44,342 nucleotides of DNA, taken from the IMG/VR virus record IMGVR_UViG_2547132254_000004, positions 1 to 44,342 of that record. One strand, 5' to 3'. Shown in pieces: positions 3,972 through 33,487 of the stretch (position 1 is the stretch's first letter; every line of letters starts with the position of its first letter). The position numbers were made by a program, and so were the translations under genes. The notes beneath the pieces were generated by a model. That model searched no databases, was not told the DNA's origin, and saw only the letters and a list, made by a program, of their open reading frames with translations. Source of the DNA: a virus. Its lineage: Duplodnaviria > Heunggongvirae > Uroviricota > Caudoviricetes.

Positions 3972-4404
3972 TATTCTCAGCAGGACACCGGTCAGATAGT
4001 GCGGCAGATCAATGTCTGGTGAATATTGATGTCCGCTGCCCGCTGATTCTATTGCCGAAACTGTGCGGGAAAAGATGTGGCAAGATATTGTTGGTAAAAA
4101 ATTCTCAGTGACTTTATGCCAGCAAATCAGTTTACCTGGCATCCAGTATCGTGTGCGGTGGATAATGTCAAAAAACATGGGGAGTCGATTAAACAGGTAT
4201 AATCGTTAAAAACCTTCAAACTCCAGGCAAAACCCTATTTCATAGAACATGTACTTTCATCTGGTATACATGAACGAATTATGACTGCGTTAGTAAAATT
4301 ATCCTGGTTAAATTACAGGCAGAGATATATGTTCCAGTCCAGTGTTTTTTCGTTTACAATATTTATCTTTCATTATCACTTGACTTTATTAAAAGAGGTT
4401 CGTT

Positions 4405-24806: not shown

Positions 24807-25157
24807 TCACTTTAACCGTTCACGGGCCGTCTTCGCCTTATGACACGGCCAGCACAGACTCTGCAGATTACTGTCAGCATCAGTGCCGCCATGCGCTTTA
24901 GGGATGATGTGGTCAACAGTTTTCGCCTCACGCACCACACCGGCACGCAGACATAACTGACACAGGCCTTTGTCACGCTTCAGGACACGCGCGCGGATAC
25001 TGTCCCACTTCGAACCGTAGCCGCGCTGATGACGGGATTGTCCAGGTTTGTATTGCTTCCAGCCTTCGCTTTTGTGGCTTTCGCAATAGCCTGACGGGTC
25101 AGTGGTGGTATGGCGGCAGCCGCGAACACGGCAGGCTTTTGGGGTTCGTGGGGGCAT
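24807..25157 (-). CDS. HNH endonuclease (terminase-associated)
   Basis: 116 aa with Cys pairs and DHIIPKAHGGTDADSNLQSLCWPCH motif, immediately upstream of the terminase genes. Confidence 0.85.
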   Translation of the reverse strand: MPPRTPKACRVRGCRHTTTDPSGYCESHKSEGWKQYKPGQSRHQRGYGSKWDSIRARVLKRDKGLCQLCLRAGVVREAKTVDHIIPKAHGGTDADSNLQSLCWPCHKAKTARERLK

Positions 25158-25204
25158 TTAAATTTCTCCTTCAATCATTACTACTGGTCTACCCATCGTA
25201 ATGG

Positions 25205-25238
25205 CAACAAAAAACCGCCCGTGGAAAGTGGGCGGTTT
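25205..25238 (-). terminator. Rho-independent terminator downstream of the GrlR-like gene
   Basis: Minus-strand AAACCGCCC-N9-GGGCGGTTT followed by a T-run. Confidence 0.5.
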
Positions 25239-25252
25239 AGGAGAGAATCGAT

Positions 25253-25573
25253 TTAAATCAAATTGCCGATAAATTTCGCCTGTACAGACAGAGTCGCACC
25301 AGGAACACCAGCAATTCCACCTTCAAGGTAATAACCATCCCCAATATCTCTCACTGAGAGATCCATCACATAATCGTTAAGGCCTGCAATAACGTTTTGT
25401 GCTGAAGGGTTGTGGCGGGATACATGAAGTTTCAATACCCCATCTTGTACACGCCCCTGATAGGTAAACCCAAAATCACCACCATTAACCGCATTATCCT
25501 TCACAACGACCGTGCCATTGCCAACATCATTATGACCGCTTCTGAACACAACAAAATAAATGCCGTCTTTCAT
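25253..25573 (-). CDS. GrlR-like protein (tentative), moron after the lysis cassette
   Basis: 106 aa (MKDGIYFVVF...GGD...YQG...LHVSRHN) resembling, from memory, the LEE regulator GrlR; AAGGA RBS; AT-rich gene and upstream region; own terminator. Confidence 0.4.
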   Translation of the reverse strand: MKDGIYFVVFRSGHNDVGNGTVVVKDNAVNGGDFGFTYQGRVQDGVLKLHVSRHNPSAQNVIAGLNDYVMDLSVRDIGDGYYLEGGIAGVPGATLSVQAKFIGNLI

Positions 25574-25665
25574 GTGTATAGTCCTTCAAAAAAATCACCC
25601 AAATCAGGTGCTTTGTATCTATTGGGTCATCACATATCAAATCAAGGAACAAAATAAAGTGAACA

Positions 25666-25935
25666 TCATTTTTTTTGCATGATGTGACCACGCTCAACTT
25701 CAATCCTTCTGATGTCAGCTTTATCGGTATTACACTGCGCCAATGCAGACAACAAGGCGGCATTCAGATCTAAGCTCGAGCCCCACGTAAAATGATCAGG
25801 TAAATCAGGCTGAGGGGTTTCAACCGTCAGGCTGGCTGGCAGTGGTGCCGTCGGAGTGTTCACGTAAACTGTCCGCGTACTTCCGCAACCGCTCAGCAGC
25901 GGCAGCAGGCACAAGACGTGAAGCACAATCATCAT
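25666..25935 (-). CDS. Rz1: Rz1-like o-spanin lipoprotein
   Basis: Alternate-frame ORF overlapping the 3' end of Rz; MMIVLHVLCLLPLLSGCGS lipobox then Pro-rich sequence; start placed at tandem ATGs 25930-25935. Confidence 0.6.
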   Translation of the reverse strand: MMIVLHVLCLLPLLSGCGSTRTVYVNTPTAPLPASLTVETPQPDLPDHFTWGSSLDLNAALLSALAQCNTDKADIRRIEVERGHIMQKK

Positions 25936-26212
25936 CCGCAACGGCCATTTTGATATCTTCCTGGGCTCTCTGTGACTCCAGTGCGATCTGCTGTTTTGCA
26001 TGCTGGTTAGCCTCCAGAACTGTATTGACGATTTGCAGTGATTGCAGGACGTTATTGGTAATGGCCATTGCTGATCCAGCATTTCGTACAGACTCATCAG
26101 CACGTTTCTTTTCGTACTGATATTTGCTGTAGTAGTGGTTGGCTGACCAGATGAAAGAACCAATGACAGTAACGAAGAAAGCAGCGATAACCAGCTTATA
26201 GCTCAACTTCAT
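25820..26212 (-). CDS. Rz: Rz-like i-spanin
   Basis: 130 aa with N-terminal transmembrane helix and coiled-coil, overlapping the endolysin stop. Confidence 0.7.
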   Translation of the reverse strand: MKLSYKLVIAAFFVTVIGSFIWSANHYYSKYQYEKKRADESVRNAGSAMAITNNVLQSLQIVNTVLEANQHAKQQIALESQRAQEDIKMAVADDDCASRLVPAAAAERLRKYADSLREHSDGTTASQPDG

Positions 26213-27175: not shown

Positions 27176-27402
27176 AAGCTGTGTGGCGAAGTGACCACTC
27201 TTAACACGATACAATAGTTTTTGCGTACGCGTTAGCATTTTTGATGGAAGTTAATGGTTGTTAATCTTATACTCAGTAAACAAAATTTATGCCGCCTTGA
27301 GCATGATGCGACATTAGGCACATGTTTGGATCTTCCTCGAAGATTCGTGCGGTAGCTATGCTCAAAATCCAATCAGCTCATAAAACATACTATGGGTTTT
27401 AA

Positions 27403-28092
27403 ATGCTCATTCCAACATCTCTATCAAAACAACCAGTAATCGAAGCTGCTTTCGAAATGCGTTTTTCTAAAGAAACACAAATATCGGAAATAGTTCCAGG
27501 GTTTCTTTTTCACGCTCTAGGTTGTACAAAACCAGTAATTAGTTTACCACCCAGTCAAATACCTAAAAATGTTCGTGAGGGAGATGAACAATTACATTAC
27601 GCAGTTGTCAGTCGCCTCGAAATCGAAGGGTACTATATTGGACTAAGTGACCATGGTGTTGTTGTATCCACCAGCACCAAATATCAAGGGTGGAGTCATT
27701 TTAGAGAAAAAATCATTCATGTATTAAATGAGCTTAACAAATTAAATTTAAATGACAACATCATCCGCTACTCATTAAAGTATGTAGATTTTTTCCCAAA
27801 AGAAGACGATTCTAATTTATTTGATAAGCTAAACGTCAGCTTAAATATGGCTGGCGAGTCTATGTCTAATTATCCGATCAATATCAGAATCGATAAAAAT
27901 GAAGGCGCATTTCTAAATATAATTCAAATATTATCTCATGCTTTAGTCATGTCAGATAATGGAGAATTTAATAAAAAAGGACTAATCCTAGACATAGACA
28001 GCATTAGGCAAATCACTAATACTGATGAAATAGATAAGTTTAAAAACGAACCAAAAAAATTCTTGATGATCTTCACTCCTGTAATAAATTAG
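27403..28092 (+). CDS. Hypothetical protein P1 of the AT-rich Q-S cassette
   Basis: 229-aa ATG ORF; AT-rich; opposite strand to all flanking phage genes; N-terminus KQPVIEAAFEMRF vaguely recalls the uncharacterised TIGR04255-type family (uncertain). Confidence 0.5.
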   Translation: MLIPTSLSKQPVIEAAFEMRFSKETQISEIVPGFLFHALGCTKPVISLPPSQIPKNVREGDEQLHYAVVSRLEIEGYYIGLSDHGVVVSTSTKYQGWSHFREKIIHVLNELNKLNLNDNIIRYSLKYVDFFPKEDDSNLFDKLNVSLNMAGESMSNYPINIRIDKNEGAFLNIIQILSHALVMSDNGEFNKKGLILDIDSIRQITNTDEIDKFKNEPKKFLMIFTPVIN

Positions 28093-28166
28093 CTTTCTTT
28101 AGTTGCCTTAAAGAGTCAACAATTCAAGAACTAGAACCATCCTACAAATAGAAATGGTGGTATGAT

Positions 28167-28511
28167 ATGTATCCGTCTCATCATGTTTATCGAGCTCAAC
28201 TTCAAGTATTAACTTTGGTTTTATATGGTCTGCATATAACTGCATTAACAGACATTGCCCAAAATCAACAGCATGGTCCTCAACAAAGTTTAATCGTCAA
28301 AAATCACGCTTTGGAGTATAAGTCTTCAACTACCGATTCAGTTCATTCCATCACACAAACATATAAAGCAGGGAGCACAATCTCAGTTGATCAAAGACTT
28401 GCAGTCTCGATGACAAACTTTTATGAAAAATTATCGACAAACCAGGTGTCTTTAGGCAGTGAAATAAATAAAGTCGTTCATGCTTCACTGTGGGATTTAT
28501 ACTTGGATTAA
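28167..28511 (+). CDS. Hypothetical protein P2 of the Q-S cassette
   Basis: 114-aa ATG ORF with GGTGG 8 nt upstream. Confidence 0.45.
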   Translation: MYPSHHVYRAQLQVLTLVLYGLHITALTDIAQNQQHGPQQSLIVKNHALEYKSSTTDSVHSITQTYKAGSTISVDQRLAVSMTNFYEKLSTNQVSLGSEINKVVHASLWDLYLD

Positions 28512-28514
28512 GTG

Positions 28515-28748
28515 ATGAGTAATAACATTTTTGATATCGAGAAATTCAAAGATCAAATTCCATATTATTTAACAGCTCATCAAAAAGAAGGGCTAATAAA
28601 TGCACTTAGAGATTTCCCTGAAAACACTAACTACTACCTTAGCAATTATCATGATGATCTGAAAAATGCTGCACTCCAGGGAGATATATTTAAGGAGCTT
28701 ACAGTATATTCAATTAAAGGGACTAAAAAACACGAGGCATTATATTAA
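28515..28748 (+). CDS. Hypothetical protein P3 of the Q-S cassette
   Basis: 77 aa; TAA-GTG-ATG junction with P2 suggests translational coupling. Confidence 0.45.
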   Translation: MSNNIFDIEKFKDQIPYYLTAHQKEGLINALRDFPENTNYYLSNYHDDLKNAALQGDIFKELTVYSIKGTKKHEALY

Positions 28749-28792
28749 GCAACAGTTGCGATATAGATACAAGTAATAATCGTGATGTGCCA

Positions 28793-29128
28793 ATGCGTGC
28801 AGTCTTTGCTCCGTTAGTAAGTTTATCTAAGTTCGAAGCTATTCTTCTCTCCAACGGAGTTTCTAAGACTTCAATAGATAGCAAAATTGATGCTATAAGG
28901 AAGCAGTTAATTACTAATATTTTTTATCTTCCTGAATCAGACAACTTAGAAGAATGCATCGTTTTTCTTGATGATGTATACCAATTACCAACGGAAGAAT
29001 TACAAAAACTCTTGAATGATAAATGCAAAGCCATAACTTTAAGTCAAGTTGGTTTCTACATTTTACTATTCAAAATATCTATTCACTTTTGTAGATTCCA
29101 TGAAAACATACAACGATTCGATCATTAA
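28793..29128 (+). CDS. Hypothetical protein P4 of the Q-S cassette
   Basis: 111 aa from ATG 28793 (track starts at GTG 28787); followed by an intrinsic terminator. Confidence 0.4.
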   Translation: MRAVFAPLVSLSKFEAILLSNGVSKTSIDSKIDAIRKQLITNIFYLPESDNLEECIVFLDDVYQLPTEELQKLLNDKCKAITLSQVGFYILLFKISIHFCRFHENIQRFDH

Positions 29129-29156
29129 GGCGGTACTACCGCCTTTTATTATTTTA
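29127..29156 (+). terminator. Rho-independent terminator ending the Q-S cassette
   Basis: AAGGCGG-TACTA-CCGCCTT followed by TTTTATTATTTT, overlapping the P4 stop and abutting the Q stop. Confidence 0.55.
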
Positions 29157-29513
29157 CACAAGTATACTTACAACCCCCTCTATAAAACCGATTGCGGTTT
29201 GCAACTCCTTCCTAATAGTGCCATCAGAGCACCTTCTCCTTTTGGCAATAGTGCGTAATGAGATACCAATAACAAAGTGGGCTATGATGAGCTCATATTC
29301 CTCTGGTTTATACTTTCTCAACCGAGCCACACAACTGTCTATCATAATGCCTTCGTCATCATCACACTGAATCCGTGACTTTTTGCCATGAGGTAAAAGC
29401 CCCTTGAAGCCTGCTGCTACCGGCTGCCAGTCCACACCACTGTTGTCTGCTGCAGCCCATGCTCCCCAGCGGTCCAATACTTCATACATATCACGCATCA
29501 ACTTACCCCACAA
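29154..29513 (-). CDS. Late-gene antitermination protein Q-like
   Basis: 119 aa at the end of the early-right operon upstream of the lysis genes; sequence compatible with the phage-82-type Q family by recollection. Confidence 0.6.
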   Translation of the reverse strand: MWGKLMRDMYEVLDRWGAWAAADNSGVDWQPVAAGFKGLLPHGKKSRIQCDDDEGIMIDSCVARLRKYKPEEYELIIAHFVIGISLRTIAKRRRCSDGTIRKELQTAIGFIEGVVSILV

Positions 29514-32549: not shown

Positions 32550-33487
32550 CCCCTGAATCCTGCCGGGATCTGGCTGTAGTCCACGTTGTCGTAACTGGCT
32601 TTGAAGTACGGGTCTTCGCGTTTTTCTGTGTACGTGCTGACGGACGGCGATAAGCGCAGGGAAAGCTCATCCCATTTTTCCCGCAGCTTCGACGGGCTGA
32701 GCACGTTACGGCACCAGAACGGATCGCGGCTGACGCGGCTGTACATCTCGCAGATTTGTTTGTGAGTACGACCATCCTGCACACACATCAGGCGAATTTC
32801 GTTTGCCCAGGCTGTCCAGTTCGGTTCTTTGGGACGAACCACCTCGCCGTCACATTCGGCGGCCAGCTCGTACAGGGCGATGATTTTTTTCCAGAGCCAC
32901 TGTGCGCAGGTCAAATCATCCTGCGTTCCCCACTGGCGCTTTTTAGGGCTGAATACAACCGCATCAGGATGGCGAGTTAAAAACTCCTGTTCAGCCGTCT
33001 GCGTGTCCGGTTGCGAAGCGTCCGGACGAGAAGTTTTTTTATCTGACGGATCATGTTTTGATTTTACTGACGGATCCCCGCCAGATTCTGACGGGTGAAA
33101 ACCCGCTTTTTTGCCAGATTTCGACGCATCAAATTTTGACGGGTCAGATTTTGATGCGTCAGATTTTGACGGGTCAGAATCTGACAATTGAGAAAATGCC
33201 GCTGCCTGAAGCTTCGCAACGTTAAGCTGATAAACATTCGACGCATTGCGGTTACCCTGGCGACGCGCCTTACGCGTTAACCAGCCTTCTGCTTCCAGCC
33301 GTGCGATAGCCGTTCTGACGGTACTCATCCCCGCGCCAATCTGACGGGCAATGGTTTCAATTGATGGCCAGCACACACCTTCGTCATTACTGAAATCAGC
33401 CAGGCGGGCCATAATTGCCACGCTGGATAATTTCATGCCTGACGCAGCGCAACCATCCCATACATAGCCGGTTAATTTAGTGCTCAT
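32546..33487 (-). CDS. Replication initiation protein (N-terminal wHTH; contains the iteron array)
   Basis: 313 aa; N-terminal HTH-like SVAIMARLADFSNDEGVCWPSIETIARQIGAGMSTVRTAIARLEAEGWL; internal SKSD peptide repeats coincide with 15-bp DNA repeats. Confidence 0.6.
   Translation of the reverse strand: MSTKLTGYVWDGCAASGMKLSSVAIMARLADFSNDEGVCWPSIETIARQIGAGMSTVRTAIARLEAEGWLTRKARRQGNRNASNVYQLNVAKLQAAAFSQLSDSDPSKSDASKSDPSKFDASKSGKKAGFHPSESGGDPSVKSKHDPSDKKTSRPDASQPDTQTAEQEFLTRHPDAVVFSPKKRQWGTQDDLTCAQWLWKKIIALYELAAECDGEVVRPKEPNWTAWANEIRLMCVQDGRTHKQICEMYSRVSRDPFWCRNVLSPSKLREKWDELSLRLSPSVSTYTEKREDPYFKASYDNVDYSQIPAGFRG
33040..33190. repeat. Iteron-like direct repeats (putative replication origin) inside the initiator gene
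   Basis: About 8 copies of a TCTGACGG(A/G)TC-centred unit; the last five (AGATTTTGACGGGTC / AGATTTTGATGCGTC) are spaced exactly 15 bp apart. Confidence 0.6.

What the first reader, a model, noticed from the sequence alone, without database searches (positions are those of the whole stretch)
25205..25660. GrlR-like gene with own terminator in the post-lysis moron position
After Rz/Rz1 and before the HNH/terminase genes there is an AT-rich 106-aa ORF with its own RBS and terminator. Its N-terminus and central motifs recall GrlR, the negative regulator of the LEE type III secretion system. A prophage-borne copy could rewire host virulence or motility regulation. The homology is from memory and tentative.
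Basis: partly seen in the sequence, partly recalled or inferred. Interest (0 to 1): 0.5.

Follow-up and report, generated by a model that had tools for sequence, protein, structure and literature searches.

The report
Orphan GrlR-family gene in prophage
A small accessory gene between the lysis and DNA-packaging genes of an E. coli prophage really is a distant relative of the virulence regulator GrlR, but it lacks GrlR's partner and partner-binding motif, its hosts lack the virulence island, databases already label it, and its function is unknown.

Summary
Window 25253-25573 (minus strand) is a 106-aa ORF. It has an AAGGA ribosome-binding site, a strong terminator and lower GC than its neighbours. 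It lies between Rz/Rz1 and the HNH/terminase genes.

It is not a LEE GrlR:
- It scores 38 bits against an equivalog cut-off of 205.
- The EDED GrlA-binding motif is replaced by QDGV.
- No grlA lies in the window or in related phages.
- None of the 14 complete E. coli genomes carrying this cassette matched a LEE grlR probe.
- The clade occurs in Klebsiella, Enterobacter, Serratia, Salmonella and Acinetobacter phages.

An empty-site prophage shows the gene is a 542-bp insertable cassette (a moron) in a variable cargo slot. It is under strong purifying selection (dN/dS 0.03-0.07).

RefSeq already calls it "GrlR family regulatory protein"; PHROG 2483 lists it as unknown function.

My best guess, by inference only, is a cytoplasmic beta-barrel dimer that binds and neutralises a protein other than GrlA. 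A conserved sigma-32-like promoter motif and a 5' hairpin were noticed upstream.

Interest is modest.

The parts
25253..25573 (-). 106-aa GrlR-family protein gene (stop codon included). Identical to RefSeq WP_000651448.1, 'GrlR family regulatory protein'.
   Evidence: ORF. GrlR homology. Fold. RefSeq annotation. PHROG 2483 at E 8.8e-52. dN/dS 0.03-0.07.
25582..25586 (-). Shine-Dalgarno AAGGA, 8 nt upstream of the ATG.
   Evidence: Read directly from the sequence.
25209..25238 (-). Intrinsic terminator: 9-bp stem AAACCGCCC/GGGCGGUUU, 9-nt loop, U-run.
   Evidence: Fold -14.8 kcal/mol, z -3.4. An equivalent GC hairpin plus T-run follows almost every phage-borne copy examined; the L066/L067 pair and the non-phage A. 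baumannii chromosomal copy (L016) are the exceptions.
25596..25611 (-). 5'-UTR stem-loop (G)CACCUG-AUU-UGGGUG followed by U7, 22 nt before the ATG. Weak in this copy.
   Evidence: Scanner hit. Fold -5.8 kcal/mol, z -0.9, not significant alone. Most of the 40 distinct upstream regions have a hairpin at about 19-25 nt before the ATG, with different, complementary stem sequences.
25619..25646 (-). Conserved two-box motif CTTGATT-N13-CCCAATAG. It has the geometry of the sigma-32 promoter consensus, and the predicted +1 is G25611.
   Evidence: It is the only match to TTGA[AT][ATG]-N12-14-CCC[CA]AT in the whole window on both strands (0.2 expected). It is present in 14 of 40 distinct upstream regions with variable spacer sequence. 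Consensus promoter from PMC10216364. Promoter function is inferred, not shown.
25158..25699 (-). The insertable cassette: C-terminal codons of Rz1, 92-nt spacer, gene, terminator and the HNH ribosome-binding region.
   Evidence: An otherwise homologous prophage (L006, strain FDAARGOS_1373) matches up to window 25157 and again from 25700, with 63 bp in place of these 542 bp.
25666..26212 (-). Upstream neighbours Rz (DUF2570, 25820-26212) and embedded Rz1/LysC (25666-25932): the end of the lysis cassette.
24807..25157 (-). Downstream neighbour: HNH endonuclease, the first gene of the packaging module.

Best explanation
This is an accessory gene cassette (a moron) of an SfV/e14-like temperate phage integrated at tRNA-Thr next to proA. 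It encodes a small cytoplasmic eight-stranded beta-barrel protein of the GrlR superfamily.

Shown:
- It is a real gene under strong purifying selection.
- It is homologous to GrlR in sequence and in predicted fold.
- It is a self-contained unit with spacer, RBS, ORF and terminator, present or absent between the lysis and packaging modules.
- It belongs to a clade spread among temperate phages of Enterobacterales and Acinetobacter.
- It has no GrlA partner, no EDED motif and no association with the LEE.

Inferred:
- Like GrlR, it forms a homodimer through the conserved N-terminal sheet (strands 1-4).
- It acts by binding and neutralising another protein, most plausibly a DNA-binding regulator of the host or of a competing element, that is not GrlA. 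The more variable C-terminal half and the strand 4-5 loop would set the specificity.
- It is transcribed with the Q-antiterminated late operon. It may also be transcribed on its own from a non-sigma-70, sigma-32-like promoter in the spacer, with the terminator ending that short transcript.

My rough probabilities: real GrlR-superfamily gene 0.97; dispensable moron cassette 0.9; protein-sequestering mechanism 0.35-0.4.
For: Homology and fold.

All seven superfamily-invariant residues are present (G4, F10, G20, G31, D33, Y38, G40).

Several GrlR dimer-interface positions listed in PMC1868957 are kept or conservatively replaced, and are invariant within the clade. I7 maps to I5, I25 to V23, Q41 to Q39, I107 to I102, and I23 to T21.

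I see no signal-peptide or transmembrane features in the N-terminus (read by eye; no predictor was run); overall GRAVY is 0.02.

Cassette nature:
- An empty site, and four alternative contents of the same slot.
- A terminator accompanies almost every phage-borne copy examined.
- Among the related loci, the gene sits after lysis cassettes of several types and before at least four small-terminase families. In single phages it lies instead among tail genes or between Q and the lysis genes.

Constraint: dN/dS 0.03-0.07 in both halves.

The N-terminal half is more conserved than the C-terminal half: 75% against 55% mean pairwise identity.

GrlR works by sequestering GrlA as a GrlR2-GrlA trimer. It also represses promoters independently of GrlA, even in K-12, so a conserved non-LEE target exists for this fold (PMC9979310).

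Upstream motif.
Against: - No partner is identified, and nothing here tests binding or dimerisation.
- The acidic EDED patch that mediates GrlR's one known interaction is absent, and that position is variable.
- Two interface residues are polar here: T21 and T37, in place of I23 and V39.
- The barrel fold is shared with many small-molecule binders. GrlR itself has a hydrophobic cavity that held detergent, so a ligand-based function is equally compatible with the fold.
- No canonical sigma-70 promoter exists in this copy. Expression in the lysogen is therefore unproven.
- The sigma-32-like -10 box is CCCAAT rather than CCCCAT.
Confidence: 0.4

Rival explanations
1. First reader's idea. The prophage protein is a functional GrlR that binds GrlA, and so represses the LEE type III secretion system and relieves GrlA-mediated repression of flagella in its host.
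For: True homology and the same fold as GrlR. A second E. coli allele of the family does co-reside with a second probe match, presumably LEE grlR, in at most 6 of 54 genomes, including O103:H2 and O121 strains. The same prophage carries a PerC-family regulator gene.
Against: - None of the 14 genomes with this cassette matched the LEE grlR probe, while 697 other genomes did.
- Allele 2 co-occurs with the LEE at about the base rate: at most 11%, against 12.8%.
- No GrlA homologue is found in the window or in loci L001-L009, and no CaiF_GrlA-family neighbour appears among 33 non-redundant viral loci.
- EDED becomes QDGV; replacing EDED with AAAA abolishes GrlA binding and repression (PMC1868957).
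- NCBIfam GrlR equivalog score is 38.5 against a cut-off of 205.
- Divergent genuine LEE GrlRs (53-54% identical) keep grlA adjacent and keep an acidic patch.
- The clade is common in Klebsiella, Enterobacter, Serratia and Acinetobacter.
Confidence: 0.05
2. The barrel is a ligand binder. It would sequester, sense or carry a small hydrophobic molecule or a nucleotide second messenger, for example as a sponge against a host signalling-based defence, rather than bind a protein.
Against: The fold similarity is generic, and no ligand-contacting residues are shared with any characterised binder. There is no hit in PADLOC and no informative viral structure match. The conserved N-terminal sheet coincides with GrlR's dimer interface, which explains its conservation without invoking a ligand.
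Confidence: 0.25
3. It is a late-function accessory tied to lysis or packaging, for example tuning lysis timing or the spanin/holin step. It would be expressed only from the Q-dependent late transcript.
For: Most phage-borne copies lie directly downstream of the spanin and endolysin genes and are co-oriented with them, whatever the lysis or terminase type. No sigma-70 promoter is found in this copy.
Against: - Closely related prophages lack it, or carry unrelated cargo in the same slot.
- Other family members lie among tail genes, between Q and the lysis genes, or in non-phage chromosomal contexts.
- A private terminator, and in 13 of 40 distinct upstream regions a near-consensus -10 box (11 of them a perfect TATAAT), argue for independent expression.
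Confidence: 0.15
4. It is a decaying or chance ORF without function.
For: Small, AT-rich, and absent from most related prophages.
Against: dN/dS 0.03-0.07 with dS of at least 1. There are 457 family clusters in 1.84 billion representative proteins. The model is confident, pLDDT 92.5.
Confidence: 0.02

Closest known systems
[quoted passage not shown]
   Different: 106 aa rather than 123, with no C-terminal tail. EDED is QDGV. No adjacent grlA, not in the LEE, and its hosts lack the LEE. It scores far below the NCBIfam equivalog cut-off and just below Pfam's gathering score. It is carried as a phage cassette with its own terminator.
Phage morons (the concept from HK97/lambda comparisons; examples are lambda bor and lom). 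Basis: my own knowledge of that literature.
   Same: An extra gene between two genes that are adjacent in related phages. It has lower GC than its surroundings and its own terminator, lies in a known cargo slot at the end of the lysis cassette, and is dispensable judging by the empty-site relatives.
   Different: No canonical sigma-70 promoter in this copy. The product is cytoplasmic, not an envelope protein like Bor or Lom.
PHROG 2483 / RefSeq 'GrlR family regulatory protein' (WP_000651448.1, WP_000651450.1)
   Same: This protein is a full-length member (E 8.8e-52), and its DNA is 100% identical to the annotated gene in E. coli ACN002.
   Different: Nothing differs. These entries carry no tested function.
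Beta-barrel co-regulators of transcription factors that sense hydrophobic ligands (VtrC, ToxS)
   Different: Those proteins are periplasmic and membrane-anchored, and pair with ToxR-like proteins. There is no sequence similarity and no such partner here.

Membership tests
GrlR superfamily (Pfam PF16518 fold family) | Significant full-length sequence similarity to GrlR | tested here: met
   phmmer against PDB GrlR, E 1.8e-9 over residues 1-103. Clade profile against GrlR, E 2.4e-16. BLASTP E 1e-14. Caveat: against the Pfam model this single sequence scores 24.1 bits, below the 26.8 gathering score, and aligns only residues 1-61. Many close relatives do carry the precomputed PF16518 hit.
GrlR superfamily (Pfam PF16518 fold family) | Eight-stranded antiparallel beta-barrel with a long plug-like loop | tested here: met
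GrlR superfamily (Pfam PF16518 fold family) | Homodimer through a hydrophobic sheet (I7, I23, I25, V39, I107 in GrlR) | tested here: inconclusive
   The aligned residues are I5, T21, V23, T37 and I102, all invariant or nearly so within the clade. No multimer prediction or experiment was possible.
LEE GrlR proper (NCBIfam NF010652, 'LEE GrlA-binding negative regulator') | Equivalog-level sequence score | tested here: not met
   38.5 bits against a cut-off of 205.
LEE GrlR proper (NCBIfam NF010652, 'LEE GrlA-binding negative regulator') | Surface acidic EDED motif (residues 46-49) required for GrlA binding | tested here: not met
   It aligns to Q43-D44-G45-V46, and the position is variable and mostly uncharged across the clade. 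The requirement comes from PMC1868957.
LEE GrlR proper (NCBIfam NF010652, 'LEE GrlA-binding negative regulator') | Co-operonic grlA (CaiF_GrlA family) immediately downstream, inside the LEE | tested here: not met
   The downstream gene is an HNH endonuclease. tblastn with Sakai GrlA finds nothing in the window or in loci L001-L009. Genuine but divergent LEE copies keep grlA adjacent.
LEE GrlR proper (NCBIfam NF010652, 'LEE GrlA-binding negative regulator') | Host carries the LEE / GrlA | tested here: not met
   14 genomes carry the cassette, 697 carry LEE grlR, and no genome has both. The probe is 160 bp searched by megablast, so a very divergent LEE would be missed.
LEE GrlR proper (NCBIfam NF010652, 'LEE GrlA-binding negative regulator') | Physically binds GrlA and represses ler | not testable with these tools
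   Needs pull-down or reporter assays.
Phage moron | Inserted between genes that are adjacent in related phages | tested here: met
   In the empty-site relative L006, 63 bp replace window 25158-25699. Other cargo occupies the same slot in L007 and L008.
Phage moron | Own transcription terminator | tested here: met
   Window 25238-25209, -14.8 kcal/mol, z -3.4. The terminator is absent from the empty site and present after almost every phage-borne copy examined.
Phage moron | Own promoter | tested here: inconclusive
   No sigma-70 site. A conserved CTTGATT-N13-CCCAATAG motif with sigma-32 geometry is present. Other clades have a TATAAT that ends 33-38 nt before the ATG. No transcript data.
Phage moron | Base composition different from neighbouring phage genes | tested here: met
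   GC 43.6% and GC3 36%, against 49-59% and 43-67%.

The most novel reading that the evidence does not exclude
The orphan, phage-borne GrlR-fold proteins may be the general form of this family. They would be autonomous, stress-inducible (sigma-32-type promoter) beta-barrel dimers acting on a conserved bacterial factor. That factor would be the same unknown element through which LEE GrlR represses promoters independently of GrlA, even in E. coli K-12. On this reading LEE GrlR is a small domesticated branch that later acquired GrlA binding through its acidic EDED loop. Identifying the phage protein's target would then reveal the second mechanism of GrlR.
Probability: 0.12. Interest if true: 0.6.

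Novelty: new member of a known kind. Interest (0 to 1): 0.3.

Why it matters
For genome annotation, the name "GrlR family regulatory protein" or "T3SS negative regulator" on prophage genes should not be read as evidence of LEE or type III secretion control. This clade has none of the features that define GrlR's known mechanism, and it lives mostly in LEE-free hosts.

For biology, it is a tightly conserved cassette, widespread among temperate phages of Enterobacterales, whose function nobody has tested. GrlR itself was recently shown to have a GrlA-independent repressor activity of unknown mechanism. These natural GrlA-free relatives offer a practical route to finding that target.

The possible heat-shock-type promoter, if real, would be an unusual way of wiring a phage accessory gene to host stress.

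Tried and rejected
- Megablast of the cassette against 50,697 phage records found nothing. The protein-level search found 10 phages.
- PADLOC defence models gave no hit.
- BFVD viral structures gave no significant match.
- Rfam gave only a sub-threshold hit on the terminator hairpin: NsiR4, 19.7 bits against 40.
- Literature searches for 'GrlR-like', 'GrlR family', and 'negative regulator GrlR' with 'phage' found no study of the phage clade.
- The GrlR-GrlA complex paper (10.1038/ncomms3546) is not held. GrlA-contact residues other than EDED therefore could not be checked.
- Searching with true GrlR recovered only LEE copies, because of the word filter.
- I considered that the divergent C-terminal half reflects an arms race. 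I dropped the idea because dN/dS is equally low in both halves among close relatives.
- I considered the upstream hairpin plus U-run as a terminator for the lysis genes. It is weak here (z -0.9). In other clades the hairpin is not followed by a U-run, so this is not a general explanation.

Full report
**1. What is in the sequence**

The feature lies on the minus strand. An ORF of 106 codons runs from the ATG at 25573 to the stop at 25253. It follows Rz (25820-26212) and the embedded Rz1/LysC gene, which ends at 25666. It precedes the HNH endonuclease (24807-25157), the P27-type small terminase and the large terminase.

- An AAGGA Shine-Dalgarno sequence lies 8 nt before the ATG.
- Fifteen nucleotides after the stop there is a 9-bp GC-rich stem with a 9-nt loop and a U-run, at 25238-25209. 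It folds at -14.8 kcal/mol and better than all 200 shuffles. The pattern scanner missed it only because its loop limit is 8 nt.
- The ORF has 43.6% GC and 36% GC3, against 49-59% and 43-67% in the neighbouring late genes.

Its only omission is that the reading direction is the reverse strand.

**2. The element around it**

The cassette (window 25150-25700) is 100% identical to four complete E. coli genomes and at least 99% identical to ten more, out of 5,426. In strain ACN002 the region is a prophage with an HK97-type head module and a Mu-like contractile tail. It has a Q antiterminator and an integrase next to tRNA-Thr and proA. RefSeq already annotates the gene as "GrlR family regulatory protein" (WP_000651448.1).

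**3. The GrlR resemblance is real homology**

- The protein matches the solved GrlR chains 2ovs and 4kt5 at E about 2e-9 over residues 1-103.
- A profile of 40 clade members matches them at E 2.4e-16.
- BLASTP against GrlR translated from the Sakai LEE gives 33% identity over 109 residues.
- An AlphaFold model built on that alignment is confident (pLDDT 92.5). It has eight strands and a long loop at residues 54-66.

Against curated models the picture is more reserved. The Pfam GrlR score is 24.1 bits, just under the 26.8 gathering score. The NCBIfam GrlR equivalog score is 38.5 against a cut-off of 205. PHROG 2483, a family of unknown function, matches end to end at E 8.8e-52.

**4. It is not a LEE-type GrlR**

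GrlR's known mechanism is sequestration of the activator GrlA by a GrlR dimer. This requires the surface EDED motif at residues 46-49 (PMC1868957; PMC9979310).

- That motif aligns to QDGV here, and the position is variable and mostly uncharged across the clade.
- Two divergent but genuine LEE GrlRs, 53-54% identical to the EHEC protein, still sit next to a CaiF_GrlA-family gene inside a LEE. They retain acidic residues at this loop.
- tblastn with GrlA finds nothing in the window or in the nine related or neighbouring loci then held (L001-L009).
- No CaiF_GrlA hit appeared among the neighbours of 33 non-redundant viral loci.
- A combined probe found the cassette in 14 genomes and LEE grlR in 697, with no genome holding both.
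- A second E. coli allele (WP_000651450.1, 54% identical) is in 54 genomes, including ETEC H10407. At most six of them have a second probe match, about the 12.8% base rate of the LEE.
- Homologues are named from Cronobacter, Enterobacter, Klebsiella, Serratia, Yersinia, Pantoea, Pectobacterium, Salmonella and Acinetobacter. They occur in Klebsiella, Escherichia, Acinetobacter and Vibrio-labelled phage genomes.

**5. It is a mobile accessory cassette**

A related prophage in strain FDAARGOS_1373 matches the window up to 25157 and again from 25700, with only 63 bp in between. Other prophages carry different contents in the same slot: a 113-aa ORF on the opposite strand, a 169-aa ORF, or the second GrlR-family allele.

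IMG/VR holds 140 viral contigs with a relative. Among the ORFs flanking the gene in 33 non-redundant loci (30 from IMG/VR):

- The upstream ORFs include 24 endolysin-family proteins, many spanins and many holins.
- The downstream ORFs include four different small-terminase families, HNH nucleases and four large-terminase families.

The gene therefore keeps its place at the lysis-to-packaging junction while the flanking modules change. In single phages it lies elsewhere: among tail genes (Acinetobacter phage qsb1) or between Q and the lysis genes (phage Pm34). In Acinetobacter baumannii a copy is chromosomal, beside a TetR gene and a VgrG island. Almost every phage-borne copy examined is followed by its own GC hairpin and T-run; one pair of loci (L066/L067) is the exception.

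**6. Selection and family size**

Against relatives 82-94% identical in protein, dN/dS is 0.03-0.07 with dS of 1 or more, and it is equally low in both halves of the gene. Between clades the N-terminal half is better conserved: 75% mean identity, with MKDGIYFVVF and NGGDFGFTYQG nearly invariant. The C-terminal half averages 55%.

A profile search of 1.84 billion representative proteins finds 457 clusters at E of 1e-3 or better. Nearly all are single-domain proteins of 105-125 aa. The LEE GrlRs rank only about 100th, so LEE GrlR is a small branch of a much larger family. Four distant members that I looked up are orphans, in varied and often mobile contexts, and none has a GrlA-like neighbour. 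[quoted passage not shown] I found no study of the phage clade.

**7. How it probably works**

What is shown is the anatomy. The mechanism is inference.

- The conserved N-terminal sheet coincides with GrlR's dimer interface, and several interface residues are kept. A homodimer is therefore likely.
- GrlR acts by binding a protein. It also has a second, GrlA-independent repressor activity that works in K-12. This shows the fold can act on a conserved non-LEE target.

I therefore favour a protein-sequestering role against an unknown partner, at a probability of about 0.35-0.4.

The main rival is a ligand-binding role. The nearest structures after GrlR are ligand-holding barrels, including a cyclic-dinucleotide receptor, and GrlR's own cavity bound detergent. 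A purely lysis-linked role is made less likely by the empty sites, the alternative positions and the private terminator.

**8. Expression signals**

No sigma-70 consensus promoter precedes this copy. In 13 of 40 distinct upstream regions from other clades, a near-consensus -10 box (11 of them a perfect TATAAT) ends 33-38 nt before the ATG.

In the window's clade the spacer instead carries two conserved boxes, TTGA[AT][ATG] and CCC[CA]AT. They are separated by 13 nt whose sequence varies.

- The pattern occurs in 14 of 40 distinct upstream regions.
- It occurs exactly once in the whole window, at 25645, against 0.2 expected.
- Counting from that alignment, the start would be G25611, the first base of a 5' stem-loop.
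- Most family members have a stem-loop at that position, with different complementary stems.

This is suggestive but untested. The -10 box is imperfect, and the hairpin in this copy is weak. In any case the gene lies inside the Q-dependent late transcription unit. From established knowledge of lambdoid phages, Q-modified polymerase reads through intrinsic terminators.

**9. Verdict**

The observation and the homology are confirmed. The virulence-rewiring interpretation is not supported for this element. The gene is an already-annotated member of a known family, in a functionally unstudied clade. Interest is modest. It lies mainly in the clade's possible use for finding GrlR's second target, and in the possible heat-shock-type promoter.

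Noticed in passing
window 25619-25646 (minus strand): Conserved two-box motif CTTGATT-N13-CCCAATAG in the spacer upstream of the gene. It has the same geometry as the sigma-32 heat-shock consensus promoter. It is the only such site in the window, and it is conserved with variable spacer sequence in 14 of 40 distinct upstream regions of relatives. The predicted start is G25611.
   Followed up: partly
window 25596-25611 (minus strand), and the equivalent position in loci L002-L098: A short stem-loop ends about 19-25 nt before the start codon in most family members. The stems differ but stay complementary (GCACC/GGTGC, GCACU/AGUGC, GCAUC/GAUGC, GCUGA/UCAGC, CUGGA/UCCAG, GCC/GGC), and loops are often AUUU. 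It would lie at the very 5' end of a transcript from the predicted promoters. Its role is unknown.
   Followed up: partly
window about 27200-29200 (plus strand): A very AT-rich block (GC 29-37%) lies between the Q antiterminator and the holin, oriented against the late genes. RefSeq annotates it as a TIGR04255-family protein plus two hypothetical proteins. It looks like a second cargo island, possibly a defence island.
   Followed up: no
window about 32707-33201 (minus strand; L001 27558-28052): The prophage carries a PerC-family transcriptional regulator gene. PerC/Pch proteins activate the LEE regulator ler in EPEC and EHEC, yet the 14 complete genomes that carry this cassette gave no match to the LEE grlR probe.
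   Followed up: no
window 25158-25699 and loci L006-L009: The Rz1-to-HNH junction is a variable cargo slot in E. coli prophages. It can be empty (63 bp) or hold GrlR-family allele 1, allele 2 (54% identical protein, in 54 genomes including ETEC H10407), a 113-aa ORF on the opposite strand, or a 169-aa ORF. Alleles 1 and 2 share about 90% DNA identity over the spacer and the N-terminal half of the gene, but are not alignable by blastn over the C-terminal half. This suggests mosaic recombination within the gene.
   Followed up: partly
L016-L018 (Acinetobacter baumannii chromosome), gene at 4001-4324: A chromosomal, non-phage family member (49% identical) lies tail-to-tail with a TetR-family regulator gene that overlaps its 3' end, with a VgrG / Tli4-like type VI secretion island just beyond. 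It has no terminator hairpin.
   Followed up: no
protein P0088 (E. coli, 99 aa): In this protein the first ~52 residues of the GrlR-family protein are joined to HNH endonuclease domains. It is apparently a deletion that fused the cassette gene to the downstream HNH gene.
   Followed up: no
proteins P0166 and P0199: Rare superfamily members carry the GrlR-like barrel as the C-terminal domain of a protein of about 210-226 aa, with an unrelated N-terminal domain. The barrel can therefore act as a module.
   Followed up: no
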